In this document: positions 8,668 through 29,704 of the stretch, piece by piece
How the letters are laid out: the number at the start of each line of letters is the position of its first letter
Position numbering within the stretch: position 1 is the first letter of the stretch
NCBI GenBank assembly: GCA_021832345.1
Contig: JAKBKY010000001.1
Coordinates: forward strand, 22,385 to 86,384
Direction of reading: 5' to 3'
Length of the DNA: 64,000 bases
From: a bacterium
Lineage (GTDB): Bacteria > Vulcanimicrobiota > Vulcanimicrobiia > Vulcanimicrobiales > Vulcanimicrobiaceae
Program-made: the position numbers and the translations under genes
Notes under the pieces: model-generated
What the model was told of the DNA's origin: nothing
Seen by the model: only the letters and a program-made list of their open reading frames with translations
The model's database searches: none

Positions 8668-10251
8668 ATGAGCGTACTTCTGAGCCACATCGACCGGACC
8701 AGCGAAGCCTACCGTGAAAATCAGGCGCACATGGACGCGCTCGTCACCGATCTGCGGGCGCATCTGCGCACGGTCGCCGAAGGCGGCGGCCCGGCAGCCG
8801 TCGCCAAGCATCGCAAGCGCGAGAAACTCACGGCACGCGAGCGCATCGCCAAGCTCATCGATCCGGCCGGCGCCTTCCTCGAGTTCTCTGCTCTCGCTGC
8901 ACACGAGATGTACGGCGGTGGCTGCGCATCGGCCGGCATCGTCACCGGCATCGGGATCGTCGAGGGCCAACACTGCGTCATCATCGCCAACGACGCTACG
9001 GTCAAGGGCGGAACTTACTATCCCCTGACCGTGAAAAAGCATCTGCGCGCTCAGGAGATCGCCGAGCAGAATCACCTTCCATGCATCTATCTCGTCGATT
9101 CCGGCGGGGCGTTTCTCCCCCTACAGGCAGAGGTTTTCCCCGATCGCGACCACTTCGGCCGCATCTTCTACAACCAAGCGCGCATGTCGGGCAGGCGCAT
9201 CCCGCAGATCGCCGCCGTCATGGGCTCATGCACGGCCGGCGGCGCCTACGTGCCCGCTATGAGCGACGAAACGGTCATTGTGAAGGGCCGCGGCACGATC
9301 TTCCTCGGCGGTCCACCGTTGGTGAAGGCGGCCACCGGCGAAGAGGTGAGCGCCGAAGAGCTCGGCGGTGCCGACGTCCACACGCGCATCTCCGGCGTAG
9401 CGGATCACTTCGCAAACGACGATCCGCATGCGCTGGCCATCGTACGCGAAATCGTCGCCAACCTGCATCGCGAGCAGCCCATCCAGTGGGACACCTGCGA
9501 CGCACAGCCGCCAACCTGCGATCCGAGAGAGATCTACGGAGTCGTGCCGCGCGATAGCCGTATCGGCTACGACGTGCGCGAGATCATCGCGCGCTTGGTG
9601 GACGGCTCGGCGTTCCATGAGTTCAAAGCTCGCTACGGAACGACGCTGGTCTGCGGCTTCGCTCGCATCGAAGGCCATCCCGTCGGCATCATCGCCAACA
9701 ACGGCATTCTCTTCAGTGAGAGCGCCCTCAAGGGCGCACACTTCATCGAACTGTGCGTGCAGCGCGGCACGCCGCTGGTCTTCTTGCAGAACATCACGGG
9801 ATTCATGATCGGCAAACAGTACGAAAACGGCGGCATCGCCAAAGACGGAGCGAAACTCGTGACGGCAGTCGCATGCGCCGAGGTTCCCAAATTCACGGTT
9901 GTCATCGGAGGGAGCTTCGGTGCCGGCAACTACGGCATGTGCGGGCGCGCTTACTCACCGCGCCAGTTGTGGATGTGGCCCAACGCTCGCATCAGCGTGA
10001 TGGGCGGCGTGCAGGCCGCAAGCGTGCTCTCCAGCGTCAAAGACGAGATGACCCCGTCGGAAAAGGCGGCCTTCGAAGCACCGATCCTCGAGAAATACGA
10101 GCGGGAGGGCAGCCCCTACTATTCGAGCGCTCGACTCTGGGACGACGGCATCATCGATCCGCTGGATACGCGACGGGTGCTGGGCATCGGCTTGTCGGCG
10201 GCAGCGCATGCACCGATTCCACGCACCGAGTTCGGCGTCTTTCGCATGTGA
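8668..10251 (+). CDS. Methylcrotonyl-CoA carboxylase beta subunit (acyl-CoA carboxyltransferase)
   Basis: Carboxyltransferase N- and C-terminal domains. Clustered with MCC-alpha, a methylglutaconyl-CoA hydratase-type enzyme and HMG-CoA lyase genes, which is the standard leucine-catabolic set. Confidence 0.9.
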
Positions 10252-10560
10252 GCACCCGCATGGACACTCGCACTCGCGCGCACGTGGTTGGGTGCCGCTA
10301 TCGCCTTCTCGGCGTCGCGGTCGTTTCACTGGCCGGCGGGGCGGGCAGGGCCCCGCTCTATGTGTTGCCAGCAGTGGGCGCGGCGCTTGCGTCGGCATCG
10401 CGTTCTCAACCTCTGGGTGCTGCGCCGCGTTCCGATGGGCATCATCTTCGGCGGCGGACACTTTGGCCGCATTCACCGGATGGGGTTGCGAAAACAATGC
10501 GGCCGCGCAGGGAGTTTGCTATACTTAGCAAGTGATTTGCGCTGATGATGTGACGCCAAA

Positions 10561-11053
10561 GTGACGAACCTGACGGGTGAAGATCCAAACGGCGTTCTCA
10601 GCCGGGATTTCAACCGTCATGTCATGCTTGAGTTTCGCGGATCAGTTGTCACGTCGGATGCGGGTCTGCTTGCGTATCGCGAACTCGATGATGCACTTGG
10701 ATTGACTCCGGCAGTCGGGAACTCCTCGCCGATGCACGCACGGGCAGGAACGGTCGGCACGCACTCGTCGGCATGTTCCGTCAATCCGTCTTCGGCAGAC
10801 TTGCGGGATATGAAGATGTGAACGATGCATTGCGCTTACGTCACGACCGCACACTCGCGACTCCCGAAGCGATTGCGGACTGGTCGCTGACGAGCCTGCG
10901 CGAGAAGCTGATCAAGATCGGTGCAAAGGTCGTCAGTCACGGTCGCTATGTCACGTTCTAGATGGCGGAGGTCGCGATTCCGCGCAAGTTGTTCGCTGCG
11001 ATCATGCAGAGCATTGTCGCTTTGCGATCGCCTCCAATGGCAACGGCAACATG
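10561..11053 (+). pseudogene. IS1380-family DDE transposase relic (frameshifted, central DDE domain deleted)
   Basis: N-terminal motif [19 protein letters not shown], the middle motif [18 protein letters not shown], and the family-typical C-terminus LREKLIKIGAKVVSHGRYVTFQMAEVAIPRKLFAAIMQSI lie in different frames. Together they total under 170 codons. Confidence 0.6.
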
Positions 11054-11125
11054 AGCGCCTCAGCGATCGTGCCCGCCTCTCGCGCCCCCAACGGGGTTCG
11101 AACCCCGAATGACCTTGCCGGGCCG

Positions 11126-11187
11126 CGCCCCGTAAGGCCGGAAACCGGCAAGCCGGGGTCGAAAAGCTCGCTCCTATGGAGAATGTT
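11126..11187. repeat. Copy 2 of the ~62-nt intergenic repeat, immediately 3' of the IS relic
   Basis: ccccgtaaggccggaaaccggcaagccggggtcgaaaagctcgctcctatggagaatg. It is preceded by the 16-nt perfect palindrome cggggttcgaaccccg (11092-11107). Confidence 0.5.
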
Positions 11188-11208
11188 GCTTGAGTTAGGA
11201 GAGTCACG

Positions 11209-11679
11209 ATGGAACCGGGTTCGCAGCCACCTCAGGGGACCGATCCCTTGGTCGATGCAAAGGCACAGGCGCTGGCCTTGGTCGAGCGCTACGGGCGCGA
11301 GCGCATTGCCCTGGCCGGATGTGGCCTTCTCGGCGCGCTCGGTACGCTGCTGCCGTTTGCCGCAGGGGGAAACCCCTTTGGAGGCGCCAGTTCGTTTACG
11401 CTCATGCAGTTCGGATTCTGGGGCTTCGTCATGTTGCTGATTCCGTTGGCCTTAGGTGCGTTGCCGTTTCTTCCCATCATGCTGAGCCATAGCCGGATGA
11501 CGCTTGCTTTCGGCGTGAGTTGCGCACTGTTGGGAGTGTTTGTGGCCATGTGGATGGCGGGCTCTGAGATCGCAGCATTTGCGGGAGGAGCGATCGGCTT
11601 TGCCTTCGGTTTCTACTGCTCGCTGATCGGGTATGCGGGATTGGCCGTACTCTACTTCCGGCGGGTTGTCGCTGATTAG
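11209..11679 (+). CDS. Hypothetical integral membrane protein (4 TM)
   Basis: Hydrophobic helices and a G/A/F-rich composition. High GC. Confidence 0.5.
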   Translation: MEPGSQPPQGTDPLVDAKAQALALVERYGRERIALAGCGLLGALGTLLPFAAGGNPFGGASSFTLMQFGFWGFVMLLIPLALGALPFLPIMLSHSRMTLAFGVSCALLGVFVAMWMAGSEIAAFAGGAIGFAFGFYCSLIGYAGLAVLYFRRVVAD

Positions 11680-12383
11680 TGCGGTGTGCGCGCGCGTGCC
11701 TTGCGGCACTCTTGCTCGGAGCGCTGGTTGGGTGTCATGAAAGCGCCGTGGAGCGCATAGACATTCACGCCAACCACACCGCAACAGTGACGATCACGTC
11801 GGTTACCGATCGCCAGCTCTACGAGTTTGCGTCGGCCATGAGCGCAACCAATCCGTTCGAGAACATCGAGCCGAGACATGCCGGGTGGACGATCGTCTCT
11901 TCCACCGACGCGCATGGTGATTTCGTCGTTCGCGCCACCAAAATCGTGCCCGTGGCGCAAGTCTGGACAATGCTTCCGGGCGGCAGCGGCCGCTATTTTG
12001 CCAATGCGACGGTACACCCATCGATCTCGCGCAAATCGATGTTCTTTTCAACGACGACACACGTGCATTTCGTGCTTCCTCCGGCCGTCGGCACTCACGA
12101 CGTCGGCAACGACGTGGCACAGGCCGCGCAGATCGTGCGTTTGAGATTCGAGATAACGACGCCCGGAACGATTGTGACGACCAACGGCATACGCATGCCG
12201 GATGGTGTCATGCGTTGGAACGACGACCTTCTGCACCCGACCGTCGTCGATTATCGCGTGCGCACGCTGCGCGTCGCGCGCATCGTTGCGGCAGCCGGGC
12301 TCGCGTTCGTGCTGCTGCTTCTGGCTATCACGCTTGGGAAGCGTCGAAAATCCGCCGTGCGAAGTCGCGCACCACTTGTGTAA
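11679..12383 (+). CDS. Hypothetical lipoprotein-like protein with C-terminal TM anchor
   Basis: N-terminal signal ending LVGC. C-terminal IVAAAGLAFVLLLLAITLGKRRK. The start overlaps the stop of the previous gene. Confidence 0.5.
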   Translation: MRCARACLAALLLGALVGCHESAVERIDIHANHTATVTITSVTDRQLYEFASAMSATNPFENIEPRHAGWTIVSSTDAHGDFVVRATKIVPVAQVWTMLPGGSGRYFANATVHPSISRKSMFFSTTTHVHFVLPPAVGTHDVGNDVAQAAQIVRLRFEITTPGTIVTTNGIRMPDGVMRWNDDLLHPTVVDYRVRTLRVARIVAAAGLAFVLLLLAITLGKRRKSAVRSRAPLV

Positions 12384-12640
12384 ACTCCATACGACACCGG
12401 AGATGAGATGAAGCGCGGCGTTGGGCGTAGAGTGGACGAAGCGTCCCTCGTATTCCCCGGCGTCTGGATTGCGCTCAGCGGAAGCCATATTTCGGCTCAC
12501 GCGACTGCCGGAAAGAGCTTGCTGGGGGAACGCACCCTCGCGAAGGACCCACAGCGATCGTACCCGGCGATTACATTAGCGCGGGTGCGCCTCAATAAAA
12601 CCACGAAGTAGCTCCTACCGAGGCATGTCAAGTAAGAGAG

Positions 12641-13213
12641 GTGCGCAGCTTGGATAGCCGACGTCTCGCCGACCGCCTAATTCAACCAGGAAACGTCCGG
12701 ACATTCTTGAAGAGCGAGGAACTTTTTCATCTGGCTGCTGCTGATTTCGAGCAACGCGGAGAGATTATAGTGACCCGCAAGCCCAAGACACTACGGGATA
12801 TTTTCTCGGAAGTAGGCGATCCACCTCGCCCTAGATCACGCCCGTTGGGTATAGAGCCAGACGAAGAAATTCTGCATTCCCCTAGCGGTAGACGCCTCTT
12901 CTTTGAGGTGAAAAATCAGGGAGACGAGGGAAATGCGGAGGAACGAGCTTACAAGCATCACACGTCGAGATTTACTCGGCGCCTTCAAGAAAAACTCGGC
13001 CTCGAATATCATCCATTTTTCACGGTTTTCACTGGGGCATTAGCGAAGAATCCGCGATACACGCTTAAATTTAGGTTCCTCATCGAAGAAGGGCACTATT
13101 TTCTATGGGATAATTACGATTCGCCCGAAGGCATCGCGGCAGTCTCCCGCTTCATCGGTGAATGTATAGACCGCTATCTCTTTAGGCGCCAAAAAGACGT
13201 GGCTGGACGCTAG
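12641..13213 (+). CDS. Type II restriction endonuclease, EcoRI/MunI-like PD-(D/E)XK fold
   Basis: PD...EVK catalytic motif (GIEPDEEIL...FFEVKNQGDEGNAEERAYKH). The EVK-QG...GNAxER arrangement mirrors EcoRI's EAK-HQG...GNAIER. The region is of lower GC and the gene is convergent with, and tail-overlapping, an MTase gene. Confidence 0.6.
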   Translation: MRSLDSRRLADRLIQPGNVRTFLKSEELFHLAAADFEQRGEIIVTRKPKTLRDIFSEVGDPPRPRSRPLGIEPDEEILHSPSGRRLFFEVKNQGDEGNAEERAYKHHTSRFTRRLQEKLGLEYHPFFTVFTGALAKNPRYTLKFRFLIEEGHYFLWDNYDSPEGIAAVSRFIGECIDRYLFRRQKDVAGR

Positions 13214-13895
13214 AAAACTTTTCTTCCTCAACGCCCCATGCATCCCACCCATCTACCCGCTCCCTTGCGAAGAGCTCGATACGCGGCCGGTCACCACATA
13301 AGCGCACGATCAAATCTCGAAAAACCGCCGGCTTACGACTATGCTCGGCACGCTGGTGCAAGATAACCTGCGGGTGAGCCAGATCAAGAATTTGGAATGG
13401 GCGCCCCGTCGGCATGGTTGTAGCCGCAAGAATAAACTCGCTCGTCGGCTTGGTAAAGGTAGGCGCCACGCCTTGCCCGACAATAACCTTGCCCTTCTTG
13501 TTTATCTTGACCCAAACGTAAGCGACTCCTCGGTAGTGCAGCCCCCATTTTTCAATAAGACTAACGGCGTAATGCAGTCGCGGTCCGGTTGCCCACATGA
13601 AAAGCACGGCGCGCTTATTAAGGATACGGCGAATATCGAGACCTGCTAGTTCATCTACCGTAAGCATCGCATAATGCTTGCCGGCAGCGGCATCCTTGAT
13701 CGCGCTACCGTAATAGGACCACGGAGGGTCCGCGTAAACGATATCGTAGCTCTTCTCGGGCAAAGGAGCAACTTCAGCAACCGGGGGTGCTTCCTGTCTG
13801 CGTGCAAGTCGCTTGAGTTGAGCAAGGTTCTTACTTGAGTAACTACTTGGCTGCACAGGCAAGGCGCGTTCACGCATACGCCCGTCATTCGGCAT
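13182..13895 (-). CDS. DNA methyltransferase, MT-A70-like with DPPW motif (N6-adenine/N4-cytosine class)
   Basis: The catalytic motif IV DPPW in IVYADPPWSYYG, an SAM-binding region, and low GC. Partnered with the endonuclease. Confidence 0.85.
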   Translation of the reverse strand: MPNDGRMRERALPVQPSSYSSKNLAQLKRLARRQEAPPVAEVAPLPEKSYDIVYADPPWSYYGSAIKDAAAGKHYAMLTVDELAGLDIRRILNKRAVLFMWATGPRLHYAVSLIEKWGLHYRGVAYVWVKINKKGKVIVGQGVAPTFTKPTSEFILAATTMPTGRPFQILDLAHPQVILHQRAEHSRKPAVFRDLIVRLCGDRPRIELFARERVDGWDAWGVEEEKFSSVQPRLFGA

Positions 13896-14155
13896 GAAAA
13901 GACGGGCTCCTCGATATGTTTGTGCTCGTCAGTTGCTGCGCCCGAGGCAAGACTCAGGTCAACGCCCACGAGCAACCCGTTGCGATAGCGCAGCATGGCC
14001 GTGGCTTTGGGCGATTGGGCAGAGCGGAGCACCCGCCGCAGATCGTAGGGCGGCCGAGAGCTGCCACGTATACCAGCAGACCACGGCCACCCGGGCCACC
14101 CGGTCGTCACGTATCCCAGGCCGCAGCGGATTGTAGGCCGAATCGCCTTCCCGCT

Positions 14156-14938
14156 ATGCCCGATCCGACGCTTACTTTCTCGGTCACCCACGGGGTGGCG
14201 CGCGTGACGCTCGCGCGCCCCGACGTTCGTAACGCCTTTAACGCAGCGCTCATCGCCGAACTGCACACCGCCTTCGACACCCTCTCAGCCGACCCGGCGG
14301 TGCGCGCCGTCGTGCTGGCGGGCGAAGGCAAGGTCTTCTGCGGCGGCGCCGACATTGCATGGATGCGTGGTTCGCTTGCGCTCTCGCACGAGGAGAACAT
14401 GGCCGATGCGCGCGCTATGAGCCTCATGTTTCGCGCCGTCGATCGCTGTCCAAAACCAACCATCGCTCGCATTCAAGGTGCGGCGCTGGGCGGTGGTGCA
14501 GGCCTTGCGGCGGTCTGCGACATCGTCATCACCGCGCAGGATGCACTCTTCGGATTTACGGAGGTGAAGCTGGGCATCATCCCCGCGGTCATCTCGCCCT
14601 TCGTCATCAGCAAGATCGGTGCCTCGCACGCGCGTGCGCTCTTTCTCACCGGAGAGCGATTCGATGCGCAGCGGGCGCTCGCGATCGGTCTAGTGCATCA
14701 GGTCGTTGCGCCCGAAGCCCTGGATGCGGCGGTCGAGTCTACTCTAGCGCAACTGCGTACGGCCGGGCCGCAGGCCACCGCTGCGGCGAAACGCCTCGTC
14801 TTCGATGTGTGTGCGGCCGGCTATGACGACTCGCTCGACCTCACCGCCAAGGCAATTGCAACTCAGCGCACCACCTCGGAAGGCCAAGAAGGGTTACGGG
14901 CCTTCCTCGAACGCCGCCCCGCAGAGTTTGCAGAATGA
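14156..14938 (+). CDS. Enoyl-CoA hydratase (methylglutaconyl-CoA hydratase-type)
   Basis: Crotonase fold (VRAVVLAGEGKVFCGGADI, oxyanion-hole motifs). Lies between the MCC beta and alpha genes. The ATG at 14156 is taken as the start. Confidence 0.85.
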   Translation: MPDPTLTFSVTHGVARVTLARPDVRNAFNAALIAELHTAFDTLSADPAVRAVVLAGEGKVFCGGADIAWMRGSLALSHEENMADARAMSLMFRAVDRCPKPTIARIQGAALGGGAGLAAVCDIVITAQDALFGFTEVKLGIIPAVISPFVISKIGASHARALFLTGERFDAQRALAIGLVHQVVAPEALDAAVESTLAQLRTAGPQATAAAKRLVFDVCAAGYDDSLDLTAKAIATQRTTSEGQEGLRAFLERRPAEFAE

Positions 14939-24113: not shown

Positions 24114-25009
24114 GGCGTGGCGCTTGGCTCCGTTTGAGCGCCTTTCAGGGCAGCCACGATCGTATCGGTATCATGGCGCAGCATGGAGATGTAGGTCGCA
24201 ACGCGTGGGTCGCTGCCGACGGAGTCGACATAGAGAGAATCCACAACCCGCAGGGCACTGCCCGCTCCGAGTGCGCGCTCGAGTTTGGCCCCCTGGCGCG
24301 GCCCGGCAAAGACCACGTGGACGTTGTAGCGCTCGGCAAGCGCTGCGATCCGGGCGAGTTGCGCTGCACTGGGCGCCGCACCCTGCGCAACGGGAACGAG
24401 AATGCTGCGAACTCCGAAGCGAGCGTCGTAGTACGTAAAACGGCGATTGAGTGCGATCATCGTCCGTTGCGCGGGGGTGAGCGCGTCGATCTTCTTCGCG
24501 ATCTCGGCGGTGAGCGAAGCCAGTTTGCCGTCATAGTCGAAGGCGTTACGAGCGTAGGTGTCGCGGTACTTGGGATCTTCATAGATCAACGCATTGCGAA
24601 TCTTGCGTATGTAGGCTTTGGCCGCGACCGGATCCATCCAGAGGTAGGGATTGCCCTTACGAATCGGCTGATAGCGCGTCAGCACGACGTGGGCGAGCTT
24701 CGGCGCGGCCGCATCCCCCAATAACCGGCCGAGCCACGGCTCCAGACCGACGCCGTTCTCGACGAGCAACTGCGCGGCGCGCACCTGGGTGACGTTCTGC
24801 TGCGTTGGGCGGTAACTGCGAACCGGTGTACCGACGGGCACGAGGCTGCTCACGCGAACGCGCGAGCCGCCGACGGCGCGTACCAGCGAGGCGAAGGTCG
24901 ATGTCGTCGTGACCACCCGCACACGCGGCATATGGGGACCGCAGCCGGAGAGAAGCAACGTTGCGGCAAGCAGAGCGAGTGCACGAATCTTCAGCGGCAT
25001 GTATTGCAA
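24110..25009 (-). CDS. Metal (Zn/Mn) ABC-transporter substrate-binding lipoprotein, ZnuA/TroA family
   Basis: Lipobox LLLSGC and a TroA-like fold. Adjacent to a Fur-family gene. No permease or ATPase genes are nearby. Confidence 0.75.
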   Translation of the reverse strand: MQYMPLKIRALALLAATLLLSGCGPHMPRVRVVTTTSTFASLVRAVGGSRVRVSSLVPVGTPVRSYRPTQQNVTQVRAAQLLVENGVGLEPWLGRLLGDAAAPKLAHVVLTRYQPIRKGNPYLWMDPVAAKAYIRKIRNALIYEDPKYRDTYARNAFDYDGKLASLTAEIAKKIDALTPAQRTMIALNRRFTYYDARFGVRSILVPVAQGAAPSAAQLARIAALAERYNVHVVFAGPRQGAKLERALGAGSALRVVDSLYVDSVGSDPRVATYISMLRHDTDTIVAALKGAQTEPSATP

Positions 25010-25443
25010 ACTCCTGAAAACTCCATCGCGTGGCCGTCGAGTTCAAAACCGTATCTCTGCTGCAAGGCTGAGGCAAACTCATCCAGCGCGCGACACGGCA
25101 CGTCCTCAACGCGGCCACAGATACGACAGATGGCGTGGTGGTGGTGGTGCTCGGGTTCGCAGAGCATATAGGTCGTCTCGCCGCGTTCATCCACGCGAGC
25201 CGATACGGTGCCCTTGGTATGCAGGCGTTCCAAGGTACGATAGACGGTCGCCAGCGATACGCGCGCCTGTTCCACGTCCAGACGCGTGTGAATCTGGGTG
25301 GCCGAGAGGTAGCGCCGGTCGCTCTCCAAGAGGCGCTCGATGGCTCCACGCGGCCGGGTGGCGTAGTCAGCCCGCATATGATGTGGGGTTTTGCGAATGT
25401 TTCGCAAATCCTGCGCGGCGGTTGCAGGGCCCGCCGCCGCCAC
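24991..25443 (-). CDS. Fur-family metalloregulator (Zur-like)
   Basis: HHHH...CxxC motifs (EPEHHHHHAICRICG...CNTC) and a winged helix. Confidence 0.85.
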   Translation of the reverse strand: MAAAGPATAAQDLRNIRKTPHHMRADYATRPRGAIERLLESDRRYLSATQIHTRLDVEQARVSLATVYRTLERLHTKGTVSARVDERGETTYMLCEPEHHHHHAICRICGRVEDVPCRALDEFASALQQRYGFELDGHAMEFSGVCNTCR

Positions 25444-25466
25444 GTATAATCAGGCCCGTCGCCCCT

Positions 25467-25542
25467 GGGGATGTAGCTCAGCTGGTAGAGCACTTGCTTC
25501 GCATGTAAGGGGTCAGGAGTTCGAGTCTCCTCATCTCCACCA
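25467..25542 (+). tRNA. tRNA-Ala (anticodon CGC)
   Basis: 76-nt cloverleaf GGGGATGTAGCTCAGCTGGTAGAGCACTTGCTTCGCATGTAAGGGGTCAGGAGTTCGAGTCTCCTCATCTCCACCA with G3:U70, a CGC anticodon and encoded CCA. Confidence 0.9.
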
Positions 25543-25548
25543 CGTGGG

Positions 25549-25582
25549 AGCCCGCGTCGTTAATAATGACGCGGGCATTTTC
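25549..25582 (+). terminator. Hairpin (cccgcgtc-N9-gacgcggg) followed by a short T tract, 3' of the tRNA
   Basis: 8-bp perfect stem followed by cattttctt. Confidence 0.4.
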
Positions 25583-25696
25583 TTGACCCAGCCCTCCTTA
25601 GAGCTACTTTACAACTCTTTAGATGTGAGGGGATAGGGACCATCTTATTGCCCCCTATCCTAGAACGGGTAACCCAGGATCCCACATACCACCGTC

Positions 25697-25867
25697 TTAT
25701 CGCTTTTTTGTCGTATTCTGCTTTGCCACCGCAGCGGTGATGTCGCGCTGCCGCATTTCGATCTTAAGATCCTGATAGCTCGGTATCTCCCGGAGGGATT
25801 CCGGCCAACTGTTAATTTCCTGCTGTACGCGCTCATATTGGTGCTGAATCATTTCGCGGTCGGTCAT
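25697..25867 (-). CDS. 56-aa protein (MTDREMIQHQYERVQQEINSWPESLREIPSYQDLKIEMRQRDITAAVAKQNTTKKR), candidate partner of the deaminase
   Basis: Not in the ORF track (under 60 aa). Its ATG overlaps the TGA of the upstream deaminase gene (ATGA). An AAGGAA RBS sits inside the 3' end of the upstream gene. Low GC. Confidence 0.45.
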   Translation of the reverse strand: MTDREMIQHQYERVQQEINSWPESLREIPSYQDLKIEMRQRDITAAVAKQNTTKKR

Positions 25868-27603
25868 CTTTTATTTCCTTTACTAACAGCTGCTTTGCGA
25901 TGAGGTGCTTTTTTCTGAGGTTGTTTATTACGTGAGTTCGCGTGCGCCTTATTGGTCAGAGGAAGGGACACTTGGCGCGGCGCCCGCTCTAGGAAAGCGC
26001 TTACGGCATCGGTTTCTGCGACCGAAATCGCGCGAGGCGTCGGCGCGTATTGCGGCAGGCGAAGCGTGGCAACTGCAGCATTAAAGTCTACCGGTTCTCC
26101 TCTTGTGGTTTTTCGGTCCATGGACATAGCGAAAAAATCCAAGTAACGGCTGGGCGCTATTCCCACAAACGAATGAAAGTGAACTTTCAAGTCTTTTTCA
26201 GGGCGCTGTTTATTGATATCGATCGAATCGTCGTAGAGATCAGCGACTAGGCTTTTTGGATATGCTTCGAAATAAATCAGTTCCCTCAATCCGCTTGCAA
26301 CAATATGCTTTGCGCAGTCATGGCAAGGAAAGGTCGTTGTGTACATGGTGCATCCTGAAATTTCTATGCCGTTTCGTGCTGCATCCGTAATGGCTGCCAT
26401 TTCCGCGTGCACAGCGCGTACGTAATCAATTGTCCCAGTCAGGAACGCACCTTTTAGTACGGCTTTATGAGGCAACTTTGAGCCCGCAATCTCCCTTTGC
26501 GCCGCGACCGATTGTTTGTTTTCCTGCTCCCAGCTACCAAAGAACAGTACGTCTAGCAGTTCTTCCGGTTCCTTGTTATTCAGGGTCGCATCGAGATACT
26601 TCGCATCTCGTAGGCGTTTTAGAAAATCAACAATTGCTCGCTGCCGAAAATAATCGCTCGAGTCACGATCGCGGTGGAAGTCGCGTCCCTTTTCATAGGT
26701 TTTATCATCGCATTCCCAGTACTGTCCGCCGAATGGTCGCGCAACCTCGTTCGTTCCGACAGCGGCGACCGAACCTTCTTCGCGCAAGACCGCAGCACCC
26801 ACTTGCCGAGCCATGGAGCCAGACCTCGCCTGAGCAGCACGCGCAAGGAACATCCCATACTCTTGTTTCGTAGGCGTTAAGTAGGGGTAACCAAAAAGCA
26901 ACTGAATGACACGGCTTATCTGGTCGCGTACGTCGTTCTTCCGGGAAGTATCCACGACGACGTCAGAAAGCTCGAATGCCTTCCTAAGGCGCTGGCCAAA
27001 TTCACGATGTTCGTCCTCGTCGCGCTCCATCAGATCCCGCACAAGATCGTATTTGACCTTACCTGTTTGAGAGATAGATTTCTGGAGCTTGCGCTCGCGA
27101 ACCTCAGGAGGCTCGTAAATACCGATAGCCACGAACGACGGCCCGTAAATCGACCGCAAGCGCTCTACTTCGGCGGGATGCTTAAGCGAGTCAATGATAA
27201 ATGCTGTGTGCGTGTGCATCCTATTTTGCTTCTCTACGCGACCATCTTTTACCAACGCATCGCGCTGTTCTTGGATCGCTACAACCGCGATCATCGCAAC
27301 AGCTTCTTCGATCCCTTGCTGCTCACGTATCGCGTTCCCGGCCCTCATTAACAGATCTTTTCGTTCGAGCGAGTTCTTAAATCGCGGATCTTTAGTGATT
27401 TGAAGAAGAGATTCGCGCTCCGGAAATGCGCCCACGTAGCGCGGAATCTTGTCGCTTAACTTAATGGGATCAGGGACGTTATACTTGAAACTGCTTAGTT
27501 CGTTGCGAAGCGCCTTAATCACCAAATCGCGATCAGCGCCAATAGGAACAATGAGACCGAAAACCAGGTCCTGCCCCATAGGTGATGGTTTTTTAACCTT
27601 CAT
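25864..27603 (-). CDS. P-loop-kinase-like N-domain (degenerate Walker A) fused to dCMP/dCTP deaminase domain; candidate nucleotide-depletion defence effector
   Basis: C-terminal half carries the cytidine/dCMP-deaminase zinc motifs HAEMAAI ... FPCHDCAKHI and the upstream deaminase core EYGMFLARAAQARSGSMARQVGAAVL..AAVGTNE. The N-terminal ~250 aa carry LVFGLIVPIGADRDLVIKAL, a P-loop-like motif with GKST replaced by ADRD. The tail is basic. The start MKVKKP forms an ATGA overlap with the upstream HTH gene. Confidence 0.7.
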   Translation of the reverse strand: MKVKKPSPMGQDLVFGLIVPIGADRDLVIKALRNELSSFKYNVPDPIKLSDKIPRYVGAFPERESLLQITKDPRFKNSLERKDLLMRAGNAIREQQGIEEAVAMIAVVAIQEQRDALVKDGRVEKQNRMHTHTAFIIDSLKHPAEVERLRSIYGPSFVAIGIYEPPEVRERKLQKSISQTGKVKYDLVRDLMERDEDEHREFGQRLRKAFELSDVVVDTSRKNDVRDQISRVIQLLFGYPYLTPTKQEYGMFLARAAQARSGSMARQVGAAVLREEGSVAAVGTNEVARPFGGQYWECDDKTYEKGRDFHRDRDSSDYFRQRAIVDFLKRLRDAKYLDATLNNKEPEELLDVLFFGSWEQENKQSVAAQREIAGSKLPHKAVLKGAFLTGTIDYVRAVHAEMAAITDAARNGIEISGCTMYTTTFPCHDCAKHIVASGLRELIYFEAYPKSLVADLYDDSIDINKQRPEKDLKVHFHSFVGIAPSRYLDFFAMSMDRKTTRGEPVDFNAAVATLRLPQYAPTPRAISVAETDAVSAFLERAPRQVSLPLTNKAHANSRNKQPQKKAPHRKAAVSKGNKR

Positions 27604-27848
27604 TGTTGTATGAGGGCGAGCAAGGTAAGCTGTTCTGGGAGCTCCTCGATGACACTCCCGAGCTTGCGGGATCGGTATTGTGCGTGGCGCGATAGGCGCG
27701 CAAGTTCGAAGCAACGCTCGATGTCTCTTGGGGCGTAGACACGCCGCCCGCGGCTATCACGTTGAGGTAGAAGCAATCCATCCTTTTCCCACCGTCGTAG
27801 CGTGTCGGGCGAGCGACCGATCATCTCGCAAACCGCCCTAATCCCCAT
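27600..27848 (-). CDS. MerR-type HTH DNA-binding protein (excisionase-like), first gene of the deaminase cassette
   Basis: MGIRAVCEMIGRSPDTLRRWEKDGLLLPQRDSRGRRVYAPRDIERCF is a MerR HTH. The stop overlaps the deaminase start. The ORF track also allows an upstream start at 27908. Confidence 0.6.
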   Translation of the reverse strand: MGIRAVCEMIGRSPDTLRRWEKDGLLLPQRDSRGRRVYAPRDIERCFELARLSRHAQYRSRKLGSVIEELPEQLTLLALIQQ

Positions 27849-28265
27849 ACTAATTAAGATTCGCCCTCTGCCCCTTCGATGCCTATGCAAAGGGGGCAAA
27901 GGGAACATGCGTTCGCATTAGAGTGTACCTCGTATTATGAGCCAGCGCAATGGTGAAGACCCTTGGGATAAGTCGATTTTCTTGTGGTCTGCTTGTGTAG
28001 AACCCACGCCCGCTCCGCAAAAATTCCCGCAGTTGGGCGTCGTCGCATCGCAAGCGAGGCACACCGCACCGTCGCCCAGTCTCGCCGCTCGAACGGCAGA
28101 ACGAGGATATCCTGCACACTAGAACCGCCCTCGCGTGCTTGAATGCTCGCCGTGGTGGCCGGGAAACCTGCAGCGAGAATCCCGGCTTGGTGGATTGCTA
28201 GGGTGCAGTCAGAGTTGGTTCAGCGAAAGGGGGTTAGCGGCACGACTTGCCGGCCTGATATGCAG

Positions 28266-28745
28266 TCATGCGGTGACGCTCTCCTTGATATGTTCGATGC
28301 GCTTAGTCTTGTGGGCTCTGATTGCGCGCGACACGTTCTTAACGATCCGATTGACGGTTTCGGCATCGAGATTTAGGCTTTGGTCGAGCGCGGCGAAGAT
28401 GGCCTGTTCGATGGACGACTTTTTCTTCAGGCGCTCGCCTTCAAGTCGGCGCTCCACGAGCGCAGAAATCGCCGATTCGCGAATACGAACGAGGAGGCGG
28501 AGGTTGTCGGGATCGAGGGCGATGAGGCGCAAGACATCGTCGGCCGCCTTGCTTTGCACGGCCGTACCGTTCTCCCAACGCACGACCGTCTTCGGCCCGG
28601 TCCCAATCGCTTGCTCGAGCTCCGCTTGCGAAAGGCGCAGTGCTTGACGCAGACCACGCACGTCGTCCGACGTCAGTAAGCCCTCGGCGCGGCGACGCGC
28701 GTCGATCAGTTTTCGATGCTGATCCCGCGTTACCGGCATGTTCAA
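28266..28745 (-). CDS. XRE/MqsA-like HTH protein with uncharacterised C-terminal half
   Basis: [40 protein letters not shown], then a coiled C-terminus. Confidence 0.55.
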
Positions 28746-28964
28746 CCAGCGCTGGCGTATCGGCTGAGAAACTCTCGACTTAGTCAGCGCGAATCTGCAC
28801 GCTGGCCGGAGACAATTACCCTGGCCACACGGTCAGTTGTCGCCGAGCACGGGCCTGCGGCCGAACCCCGGCAACAGCCGGCAGTTTCGCGAAATGCACC
28901 ATGTCCGTGCGGCAGCGGAAAGAAGTATAAGCGCTGCTGTGGCTCAAGCCTGCGCGCCGTTTAG
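28716..28964 (+). CDS. Small SEC-C motif protein ([14 protein letters not shown])
   Basis: C-terminal SecA/YecA-type zinc-binding motif. The start is uncertain; it overlaps the divergent HTH start. Confidence 0.3.
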
Positions 28965-29041
28965 TTCAACCACTTAAGACGGCGGGCGATTTGACACCGT
29001 ATTGACACCCAATGGGGCGAACCGAGGCGAGGTGCCATAAC

Positions 29042-29401
29042 ATGGCTCGCACGTTCAGTGAACTCCGCGCGAAGATGTCGCCAACGGCTCAGATCAAGAG
29101 CGAAGTGATGGCGCGTGATATCTTGCGTCAACTCCCGCTGCAAGAACTGCGCCGTGCCAGCGAGTACTCGCAGCAGACGCTCGCCGATGCCATGGGCGTG
29201 CCGCAATCAGCGATCTCGAAGATTGAACGGCGCACCGATGCGTATGTCAGCACCTTGCGCAAGTACCTTCGCGCGATGGGCGGCGAACTCGAAATCGTTG
29301 CCGCCTTCCCCGACGGCACGCGCGTTGAGATCAAGCAGTTCCAAGACATCGGCGAACCCGCTCCGGAGTTCGTCGACGCATGGCTGATTGGAGGGAGGTG
29401 A
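29042..29401 (+). CDS. XRE-family HTH protein (antitoxin-like), apparently orphan
   Basis: MARTFSELRAKMSP...ELRRASEYSQQTLADAMGVPQSAISKIERRTDAYVSTLRKYLRAMGGELEIV. This is a family typically paired with RelE/HigB-like toxins. No toxin gene is adjacent. Confidence 0.6.
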   Translation: MARTFSELRAKMSPTAQIKSEVMARDILRQLPLQELRRASEYSQQTLADAMGVPQSAISKIERRTDAYVSTLRKYLRAMGGELEIVAAFPDGTRVEIKQFQDIGEPAPEFVDAWLIGGR

Positions 29402-29704
29402 ACAGAGATTACAAGTAAGCGCATCGCAAAGAAGGCGTCAAAGCTTGGCCGCAAAGCTAAGAACCTACGGAAAGAGTACGCAGGCATCGAGAAAGACACG
29501 AAAGCGCTCGCTGCCGCTGACGGTCGGCATCCTCAGTGGCCTGATGTGGCTCCCGTTCTCATGGATGATCGATCATTGGATCGGCATATTTCACAGTGTT
29601 GTTCGCACGGTGTCGATCGTCGCTTTGTGGTACGCGTTCCCCCACGACCGCTTCGTCGTTATCCCTGCGGTGCCGGCCGTGTGCCGACCGCAAAATTGTC
29701 GCTC

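What the first reader, a model, noticed from the sequence alone, without database searches (positions are those of the whole stretch)
12641..13895. Low-GC EcoRI/MunI-like Type II restriction-modification pair inserted into the leucine-catabolic operon
- **Endonuclease.** The 190-aa protein has PD...EVK followed by QG...GNAxER. This is the same order as the EcoRI catalytic/recognition region (EAK, HQG, GNAIER).
- **Methyltransferase.** The convergent, tail-overlapping partner is an MT-A70-like MTase with the DPPW motif (amino-methyltransferase).
- **Likely target.** EcoRI-family enzymes recognise sites with an AATT core, which would be very rare in a ~68% GC genome.
- **Context.** The pair is AT-richer than its surroundings and sits in a larger insertion that splits the liuB-like gene from the rest of the operon.
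Basis: partly seen in the sequence, partly recalled or inferred. Interest (0 to 1): 0.6.

Follow-up and report, generated by a model that had tools for sequence, protein, structure and literature searches.

The report
MunI-like Type II restriction-modification gene pair
Two overlapping genes of foreign, low-GC origin in an uncultured Eremiobacterota genome encode an ordinary restriction-modification defence pair: a small DNA-cutting enzyme related to MunI and a DNA adenine methylase that protects the host's own DNA.

Summary

- **Motifs.** Catalytic P73-D74...E89-V-K91 and the AATT-reading G97-NAEER102 align with MunI residue for residue.
- **Methyltransferase.** Window 13182-13895 (-) encodes an MT-A70 m6A methyltransferase with DPPW (Pfam 100 bits). 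This is the same MTase clade as M.MunI.
- **System.** PADLOC's Type II REase and MTase models match both proteins (3e-33 and 4.5e-47). Every R homologue whose context I could read lies next to an MT-A70 gene.
- **Origin.** The module is 52.7% GC in a 63.5% GC window and lies near an IS1380 remnant.

Corrections:
- EcoRI is related only at fold and motif level.
- The window is about 64% GC, not 68%.
- The liuB/hydratase split predates this pair, because relatives carry other cargo at the same spot.

An AATT core is inferred. The outer base is unknown, because MunI's Arg115 is Glu here. GAATTC is depleted (1 site in 73 kb, against 20 in 84 kb in relatives), but that is only suggestive.

This is a new member of a known kind, of low interest.

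The parts
12650..13213 (+). R gene: a 187-aa MunI-like Type IIP restriction endonuclease. The mechanical ORF starts at GTG 12641; the likely true start is TTG 12650.
   Evidence: - PDB: MunI is the only hit.
- PADLOC REase_II PDLC03567: 3.4e-33 over the full length.
- Pfam PF11407: 18.6 bits, below the 25-bit cut-off in the local copy, but listed without a weak mark for the 187-aa product in the precomputed table.
12633..12640 (+). Shine-Dalgarno-like AAGAGAGG, 9 nt upstream of the TTG start of R.
   Evidence: Read from the sequence. Its function is inferred.
12857..12862 (+). Codons for P73-D74, the first catalytic acid of the PD...(D/E)XK motif.
   Evidence: Aligned to MunI P82-D83 (Ala in the crystallised mutant). 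P73 is invariant, and position 74 is D or E across the family.
12905..12913 (+). Codons for E89-V90-K91, the catalytic E-x-K.
   Evidence: Aligned to MunI E98-I-K100. Invariant in 9 of 9 sequences. Present in 125 of 155 wider relatives.
12926..12946 (+). Codons for E96 plus G97-N-A-E-E-R102. GNAxER is the recognition motif for the AATT core. E96 occupies the position of MunI Arg115.
   Evidence: Aligned to MunI R115-GNAHER121. GNAEER is invariant. The residue before it is variable across the family: R 39, A 24, G 14, S 9, K 8, Q 7, E 4 and others.
13182..13895 (-). M gene: a 237-aa MT-A70 (beta-class, M.MunI-like) N6-adenine DNA methyltransferase.
   Evidence: - Pfam MT-A70: 1.5e-28, 100.3 bits against a 23.9-bit cut-off.
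- PADLOC MTase_II: 4.5e-47.
- PDB: MT-A70 DNA 6mA MTases and METTL3/14.
13719..13730 (-). Codons for D56-P-P-W59, catalytic motif IV of the methyltransferase.
   Evidence: Read from the sequence. Aligned to the DPPW of MT-A70 structure 7f4r.
13182..13213 (.). 32-bp tail-to-tail overlap of the convergent R and M genes.
   Evidence: Coordinates. The same convergent overlapping layout is seen in L004, L005, L006, L008, L090 and L091.
10561..10961 (+). Decayed IS1380-family transposase. Only N- and C-terminal fragments remain, at the left side of the variable segment.
   Evidence: Pfam DDE_Tnp_1_4 and NCBIfam IS1380 match profile positions 2-41 and 374-412 only.
10252..14155 (.). Variable 3.9-kb segment between liuB (8668-10251) and the enoyl-CoA hydratase gene (14156-14938). 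It holds the IS remnant, three unconserved ORFs and the R-M module.
   Evidence: - Relatives L009, L011, L012 and L013 have 3-3.4 kb of unrelated cargo here, and L033 has none.
- The ORFs upstream of R are not found with R-M elsewhere.

Best explanation
This is a horizontally acquired, two-gene Type IIP restriction-modification system of the MunI kind, in a Candidatus Eremiobacterota genome.

**Nuclease (inferred mechanism).** The 187-aa nuclease is expected to act as a homodimer. It would approach DNA from the major groove and read a short palindrome with an AATT core through the invariant GNAEER segment. It would cut both strands with Mg2+ through D74, E89 and K91, probably leaving 5'-AATT overhangs as MunI and EcoRI do.

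**Methyltransferase (inferred mechanism).** The convergent MT-A70 methyltransferase would put N6-methyl on an adenine of the same site, using S-adenosylmethionine through its DPPW motif. Host DNA is then protected, while unmethylated incoming DNA is cleaved.

**Shown:**
- family membership of both proteins;
- conservation of the catalytic and recognition motifs;
- strict R-M linkage across homologues;
- foreign base composition.

**Inferred:**
- enzymatic activity;
- dimeric state;
- cleavage geometry;
- the AATT core.

**Unknown:** the outer base pair. MunI reads the outer C:G with Arg115 (my recollection of Deibert et al. 1999, which is not held in the library), and this protein has Glu96 at that position. 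My ranking is GAATTC about 0.35, bare AATT or a degenerate NAATTN about 0.3, CAATTG about 0.15, and something else for the rest.
For: - MunI is the sole PDB sequence hit, with motifs in register.
- PADLOC Type II REase and MTase models match at 3.4e-33 and 4.5e-47.
- MT-A70 scores above the Pfam cut-off.
- M.MunI is related to MT-A70 according to the literature (PMC7145601, PMC4738411).
- An R homologue lies next to an MT-A70 gene in all 7 other loci read. They are convergent in L004, L005, L006, L008, L090 and L091, and tandem in L007 and L089, in otherwise unrelated neighbourhoods.
- R and M group the same way, (L090, L091) and (L089, L007), so they are inherited as a unit.
- All 52 invariant family residues are kept in the window protein.
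- GC is 52.7% against 63.5%, and GC3 is 0.50-0.56 against 0.73-0.79.
- An IS1380 remnant lies nearby.
- For GAATTC: 0 sites in the 64-kb window and 1 in 73.5 kb, against 20 in 83.8 kb of orthologous sequence from relatives (p = 7e-5). CAATTG is 5 against 4.
Against: - No activity or methylome data exist.
- The window protein scores below the Pfam gathering threshold for PF11407 in the local Pfam copy (18.6 against 25 bits).
- The first catalytic acid is Glu rather than Asp in most family members. This is unusual, though not disqualifying.
- The GAATTC depletion is not exceptional. It ranks 191st of 2080 hexamers under an order-2 model, the maximal-order expectation is only 1.0, and GAGCTC, TCGCGA and CAGCTG differ from relatives at least as strongly.
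- Contigs that carry Arg-type homologues show no clear CAATTG avoidance (6 observed against 11 expected). Site avoidance is therefore a weak indicator here.
- Very close solitary MT-A70 homologues exist. The methylase family evidently functions without a nuclease as well.
Confidence: 0.85

Rival explanations
1. The methylase is the functional part, acting as an orphan or epigenetic m6A methyltransferase like its solitary Eremiobacterota relatives. The nuclease gene is then a decaying or silent passenger.
For: - Homologues of M at 63-64% identity are solitary, in a conserved housekeeping neighbourhood in sister genomes.
- The M family is far larger than the R family: 2491 hits at 1e-20 against 8 word-indexed clusters, or 149 profile clusters.
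- R carries a 3-residue insertion in a low-confidence loop, relative to its 95%-identical relative P0001.
Against: - R is full length and keeps every invariant family residue, including the catalytic and recognition motifs.
- The M gene has the same foreign composition as R, so the two arrived together.
- The identical gene pair is found in several independent assemblies.
Confidence: 0.08
2. It is a straightforward MunI isoschizomer that recognises CAATTG.
For: MunI is the closest characterised relative by sequence and structure. Most family members carry Arg directly before GNAxER, as MunI does.
Against: - The window protein has Glu, not Arg, at that position.
- CAATTG is not depleted: 5 observed against 4.7-11 expected, and the same density as in relatives.
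- The loop between E-x-K and GNAxER is 5 residues here, against 15 in MunI. The outer-base contacts therefore need not be the same.
Confidence: 0.15
3. The nuclease is not a restriction enzyme. It would be a PD-(D/E)XK nuclease of another role (repair, mobile-element or toxin) that merely shares the fold.
Against: - The MunI match is well separated from the rest and includes the DNA-recognition motif GNAxER, not only the catalytic core.
- Linkage to a DNA methyltransferase is obligate.
- A full-length PADLOC Type II REase model matches.
Confidence: 0.03

Closest known systems
MunI restriction-modification system (R.MunI, PDB 1d02, with M.MunI; site C/AATTG; Mycoplasma)
   Same: - Same order and register of P-D, E-x-K and GNAxER.
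- Similar small size (187 against 202 aa).
- The methyltransferase belongs to the same circularly permuted MT-A70/M.MunI clade.
- Two-gene Type IIP organisation.
   Different: - Only about 22% identity.
- The loop between E-x-K and GNAxER is 5 residues instead of 15.
- Arg115, the outer-base reader, is replaced by Glu96, so the specificity may differ.
- The host is a high-GC Eremiobacterota genome.
EcoRI / RsrI (G/AATTC)
   Same: - Alpha-class PD-(D/E)XK fold.
- Motif order E-A-K-H-Q-G ... G-N-A-I-E-R, compared with E-V-K-N-Q-G ... G-N-A-E-E-R here.
- AATT core.
- GAATTC is the NAATTN word most depleted in this genome.
   Different: - No detectable sequence similarity by profile search (E above 10).
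- EcoRI is 277 aa, with extra elements for the outer G:C pair that have no counterpart here.
- To my recollection (not tested here), M.EcoRI is not an MT-A70 enzyme, although M.RsrI is beta-class.
MluCI / Tsp509I-type AATT enzymes
   Same: These are cited as evolutionary relatives of EcoRI and MunI (PMC4081073). A minimal protein with a very short recognition loop would fit a 4-bp AATT site. AATT density in this genome is 2.3-fold lower than in relatives.
   Different: No sequence of these enzymes was available to compare. The AATT depletion is uneven across flanking contexts, and CAATTG and TAATTA are not depleted.
Solitary MT-A70 methyltransferases conserved in Eremiobacterota (P0095, P0099)
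   Same: 66-67% core identity to the window M, with the same length and motifs.
   Different: They have no adjacent nuclease. They sit in a conserved arginase / DUF92 / haem-biosynthesis neighbourhood rather than in a low-GC variable spot.

Membership tests
MunI-like Type II restriction endonucleases (Pfam PF11407) | Significant sequence match to the family model or to MunI itself | tested here: met
   - MunI is the only PDB hit: E 7e-4 for the single sequence and 4e-6 for the profile.
- The local Pfam copy gives 18.6 bits, below the 25-bit cut-off.
- The precomputed PF11407.15 hit for the 187-aa product is listed without a weak mark.
- 6 of 9 family members hit PF11407.
MunI-like Type II restriction endonucleases (Pfam PF11407) | MunI fold | tested here: met
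   [not shown]
MunI-like Type II restriction endonucleases (Pfam PF11407) | Catalytic PD...(D/E)XK triad (MunI D83, E98, K100) | tested here: met
   D74, E89 and K91 are aligned to those positions. E89 and K91 are invariant, and position 74 is D or E.
MunI-like Type II restriction endonucleases (Pfam PF11407) | GNAxER segment that reads the AATT core | tested here: met
   G97-NAEER102 is aligned to MunI G116-NAHER121 and is invariant in the family.
MunI-like Type II restriction endonucleases (Pfam PF11407) | Arg115 equivalent, which reads the outer C:G pair and gives CAATTG specificity | tested here: not met
   Glu96 occupies this position. It is Gln in P0001, Glu in P0008 and Arg in the six other close homologues. 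This lowers the claim 'MunI isoschizomer', but not the claim 'MunI-family enzyme'.
MunI-like Type II restriction endonucleases (Pfam PF11407) | Site-specific Mg2+-dependent cleavage | not testable with these tools
   This needs biochemistry.
EcoRI family (EcoRI/RsrI) | Sequence similarity to EcoRI/RsrI | tested here: not met
   [not shown]
MT-A70 / M.MunI-like beta-class N6-adenine methyltransferases (Pfam PF05063) | Family model match above the curated threshold | tested here: met
   100.3 bits against a 23.9-bit cut-off, covering profile positions 1-172 of 172.
MT-A70 / M.MunI-like beta-class N6-adenine methyltransferases (Pfam PF05063) | Catalytic DPPW motif at the N-terminal side of the domain (permuted order) | tested here: met
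   D56-P-P-W59 is aligned to the DPPW of 7f4r.
MT-A70 / M.MunI-like beta-class N6-adenine methyltransferases (Pfam PF05063) | Methylates DNA rather than RNA, at a defined site | not testable with these tools
   The PADLOC Type II DNA MTase model matches at 4.5e-47, and linkage to a REase argues for DNA. No methylome is available.
Type II restriction-modification system | Separate R and M genes, adjacent and co-inherited | tested here: met
   They are adjacent in the window and in all 7 other homologue loci read. R and M group congruently.
Type II restriction-modification system | R and M share one recognition sequence | not testable with these tools
   This is inferred only from the linkage.

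The most novel reading that the evidence does not exclude
The small MunI-like scaffold may have diversified its outer-base specificity through the single residue before GNAxER. That residue is Arg in MunI and most close homologues, Glu here, Gln in a 95%-identical variant, and Ala, Gly, Ser or Lys elsewhere.

On this reading the window enzyme is a minimal 187-aa GAATTC (or other non-CAATTG) cutter that reaches EcoRI-like specificity without EcoRI's extra recognition elements.

In addition, its methylase may belong to the same specificity group as a lineage-wide solitary MT-A70 methylase of Eremiobacterota. The nuclease would then be a rare add-on to, or the ancestral partner of, a conserved epigenetic methylase.
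Probability: 0.25. Interest if true: 0.45.

Novelty: new member of a known kind. Interest (0 to 1): 0.2.

Why it matters
Mostly it does not. This is a routine annotation result: a Type II R-M pair of a catalogued family in a mobile, variable spot.

Three points give it modest value:
1. It documents a compact MunI subfamily with a 5-residue linker between the catalytic E-x-K and the GNAxER recognition segment. The family has about 150 clusters at 50% identity. The position equivalent to MunI Arg115 varies across them, which makes a convenient natural series for studying how AATT-family enzymes choose the outer base pair.
2. It shows an active-looking defence module in the poorly studied phylum Eremiobacterota.
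3. The closely related solitary MT-A70 methylases in conserved synteny hint at an epigenetic methylase in that phylum that may derive from, or give rise to, such R-M systems.

Tried and rejected
- **Viral contigs.** A scan with the R alignment found no relatives.
- **Plasmids.** tblastn of R against the plasmid collection found no match.
- **Promoter and terminator scan** of 12300-14200 found nothing.
- **orf67 (12408-12611) as a controller protein.** It has no Pfam or PADLOC hit and is not conserved next to R-M elsewhere. Rejected.
- **Flanking repeats.** A search of the 10.2-14.2 kb segment for repeats marking a mobile element gave only short, imperfect matches typical of chance.
- **CAATTG avoidance** in contigs carrying Arg-type homologues was not convincing: 6 observed against 11 expected.
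- **GAATTC absence as a decisive signal.** It was weakened by one site just outside the window, by an unremarkable all-hexamer rank, and by equally large differences from relatives for other palindromes.
- **Extending the genome sample** past the right end of the window failed. Two look-ups found no record.
- **Metagenome scan with M** returned only 8 loci, none with an R gene.
- **PMC3299994** (non-specific adenine methylases) does not concern MT-A70 enzymes.
- **The MunI co-crystal paper** (PMC1171646) is not held. The role of Arg115 therefore rests on my own recollection.

Full report
**Observation.** One is a 190-aa ORF at 12641-13213 on the plus strand. The other is a 237-aa ORF at 13182-13895 on the minus strand. 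They are convergent and overlap by 32 bp at their 3' ends. The quoted motifs are present:
- R has P73-D74, E89-V-K91-N-Q-G and G97-N-A-E-E-R102.
- M has D56-P-P-W59.

The likely true start of R is TTG at 12650, giving 187 aa. It lies 9 nt downstream of AAGAGAGG, it matches the MDSRR/LDSRR N-termini of homologues, and the public assemblies call the gene as 187 aa.

The module is 52.7% GC, against 63.5% for the window. Its GC3 is 0.50 and 0.56, against 0.73-0.79 in the flanking genes. It falls in the lowest 2% of same-size windows. The window is about 64% GC, not 68%.

**The nuclease.**
- *Pfam.* The only hit is the MunI family PF11407. In the local copy it scores 18.6 bits, below the 25-bit cut-off. 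The precomputed annotation for the 187-aa product lists PF11407 without a weak mark.
- *Solved structures.* MunI (1d02) is the only sequence match, at E 7e-4. With a profile of the nine family sequences the E-value improves to 4e-6, and MunI remains the only hit up to E 10.
- *Alignment register.* P73-D74 aligns to MunI P82-D83 (Ala in the crystallised mutant), E89-V-K91 to E98-I-K100, and G97-NAEER102 to G116-NAHER121.
- *Conservation.* E89 to G94 and G97 to R102 are invariant in all nine sequences.
- *PADLOC.* The model REase_II PDLC03567 matches the whole protein at 3.4e-33, and a second REase_II model matches the C-terminal half at 3.8e-4.

The protein is therefore a member of the MunI family. 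It resembles EcoRI only in fold and motif order.

**The methyltransferase.**
- MT-A70 matches at 1.5e-28 over the full Pfam model.
- PADLOC MTase_II matches at 4.5e-47.
- The solved relatives are MT-A70 DNA 6mA methyltransferases and METTL3/METTL14, with DPPW aligned.
[quoted passage not shown] It also groups M.MunI with the circularly permuted Ime4/MT-A70 clade (PMC4738411).

An MT-A70 enzyme next to a MunI-like nuclease is therefore the canonical MunI arrangement, not an odd pairing.

**Linkage.**
- The word-indexed search found only 8 clusters of R relatives among 5.8 billion proteins.
- The exhaustive profile search found 149 representative clusters at E 1e-3 or better, 18 of them at 1e-30 or better.
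- In all seven other loci I could read (six distinct R proteins), an MT-A70 gene is adjacent. The pair is convergent and overlapping in L004, L005, L006, L008, L090 and L091, and tandem in L007 and L089.
- The surrounding genes differ from locus to locus and include IS110 transposases, serine recombinases, HTH genes and Cas1-like proteins.
- R and M group the same way, (L090, L091) and (L089, L007), so they are inherited together.
- The three ORFs upstream of R in the window (memb156, hyp234, orf67) are not found with the pair elsewhere. The module is therefore just the two genes.

**Context.** The window matches an uncultured-organism assembly (GCA_027422205.1) and a 600-kb metagenome contig. 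The nearest liuB relatives are Candidatus Eremiobacterota MAGs at 80-82% identity.

The segment between liuB (8668-10251) and the enoyl-CoA hydratase gene (14156-14938) is 3.9 kb. It carries:
- an internally deleted IS1380 transposase;
- three unconserved ORFs;
- the R-M module.

The closest relatives (L009, L011, L012, L013) also have 3-3.4 kb at this spot. There it holds four minus-strand genes: a hypothetical protein, an alpha/beta hydrolase, a molybdopterin oxidoreductase and a cytochrome b561. A more distant Eremiobacteraceae genome (L033) has the two liu genes about 150 bp apart.

The operon was therefore already split at a variable spot. What is specific to this genome is the cargo, not the split.

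**Specificity.** The invariant GNAxER supports an AATT core by analogy with MunI and EcoRI. This is an inference. In MunI the residue before GNAHER, Arg115, reads the outer C:G pair; that is my recollection of Deibert et al. 1999, which is not held in the library. The position varies as follows:
- Glu96 in the window protein;
- Gln in the 95%-identical P0001;
- Glu in P0008;
- Arg in the six other close homologues;
- across the wider family, R 39, A 24, G 14, S 9, K 8, Q 7, T 6, E 4, D 4.

Site counts:
- GAATTC is absent from the 64-kb window. The expectation is 7.1 (order 0), 16.2 (order 1) or 5.8 (order 2), but only 1.0 at maximal order.
- GAATTC occurs once in a 9.5-kb extension beyond the window.
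- Relatives have 20 GAATTC sites in 83.8 kb, giving p = 7e-5 for the difference.
- CAATTG is 5 against 4.
- Total AATT density is 0.49 per kb, against 1.11 per kb in relatives.

Reasons for caution:
- GAATTC ranks only 191st of 2080 hexamers for under-representation.
- GAGCTC, TCGCGA and CAGCTG differ from relatives as much or more.
- Contigs with Arg-type homologues show no clear CAATTG avoidance.

I treat GAATTC as the leading but unproven candidate. CAATTG is the less likely one.

**Side finding.** Homologues of M at 63-64% identity (66-67% over the core) in sister Eremiobacterota genomes are solitary. They lie in a conserved neighbourhood: arginase, a 234-aa hypothetical protein, MT-A70, DUF92, uroporphyrinogen methylase/synthase, hemA and hemL. 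In a neighbour-joining tree, R-linked and solitary methylases are interleaved within one tight family. This suggests repeated gain or loss of the nuclease partner. It also suggests, without showing, a lineage-conserved epigenetic methylase related to this R-M system.

**Verdict.** This is a MunI-like Type IIP restriction-modification pair of foreign composition. It is a new member of a known, already catalogued kind. The open questions are the outer-base specificity and the relationship to the solitary methylases. Interest is low, at about 0.2.

Noticed in passing
L093 6001-6699, L094 1590-2288 and L095-L099 (for example L095 6001-6708): Close homologues of the window methylase (63-64% identity) are solitary in sister Eremiobacterota genomes. 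They sit in conserved synteny: arginase, a 234-aa hypothetical protein, MT-A70, DUF92, uroporphyrinogen methylase/HEM4, hemA and hemL. This looks like a lineage-conserved orphan m6A methylase related to the R-M methylase.
   Followed up: partly
window 25000-29500, chiefly 25864-27714 (-): This is the only other low-GC island in the window (GC 0.50-0.53). It encodes a 616-aa protein with a C-terminal cytidine/dCMP deaminase domain. The protein matches PADLOC's dCTPase (dCTP deaminase anti-phage defence) model at 6.4e-139. An HTH_3 gene lies nearby at 29012-29401. It is probably a second acquired defence gene.
   Followed up: partly
window 1-64000 plus 9.5 kb upstream (L092): CAGCTG (the PvuII site) is the most depleted palindrome in this genome sample. 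There are 3 sites against about 20 expected, and 26 in 84 kb of relatives. GAGCTC (15 against 56) and TCGCGA (56 against 124) also differ strongly from relatives. Other R-M systems or compositional drift could be responsible.
   Followed up: no
window 10561-10961: An internally deleted IS1380-family transposase. Only the first 40 or so and the last 40 or so residues of the profile remain, in two short ORFs directly downstream of liuB.
   Followed up: partly
L009 11604-14929, L012 11606-14962: In the nearest relatives, the liuB-hydratase gap carries four minus-strand genes: a hypothetical lipoprotein-like protein, an alpha/beta hydrolase, a molybdopterin oxidoreductase (MsrP/YedY-like) and a cytochrome b561 (MsrQ-like). 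This intergenic spot of the liu cluster is therefore a recurrent site of cargo exchange in the lineage.
   Followed up: partly
L005 5864-7441, L007 2149-3861: Unusually long Cas1-domain proteins (525 and 570 aa) lie a few kb from the R-M pair in two unrelated contigs. Each has an HTH gene and several unannotated ORFs nearby. They may be casposon-like or another mobile or defence element.
   Followed up: no
P0001 (JGI contig of 2006 bp) compared with window 12650-13213: A 95%-identical variant of the nuclease differs at the putative specificity position (Gln instead of Glu96). It also lacks the 3-residue insertion in the 58-69 loop and differs at the C-terminus. A change at that position between near-identical proteins is notable.
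   Followed up: no
window 11209-12383: Two overlapping ORFs (156 aa, apparently membrane-spanning, and 234 aa with a lipoprotein-like N-terminus) have no family match apart from a faint LppM hit. They lie between the IS remnant and the R-M module and are not conserved with the R-M pair elsewhere.
   Followed up: partly
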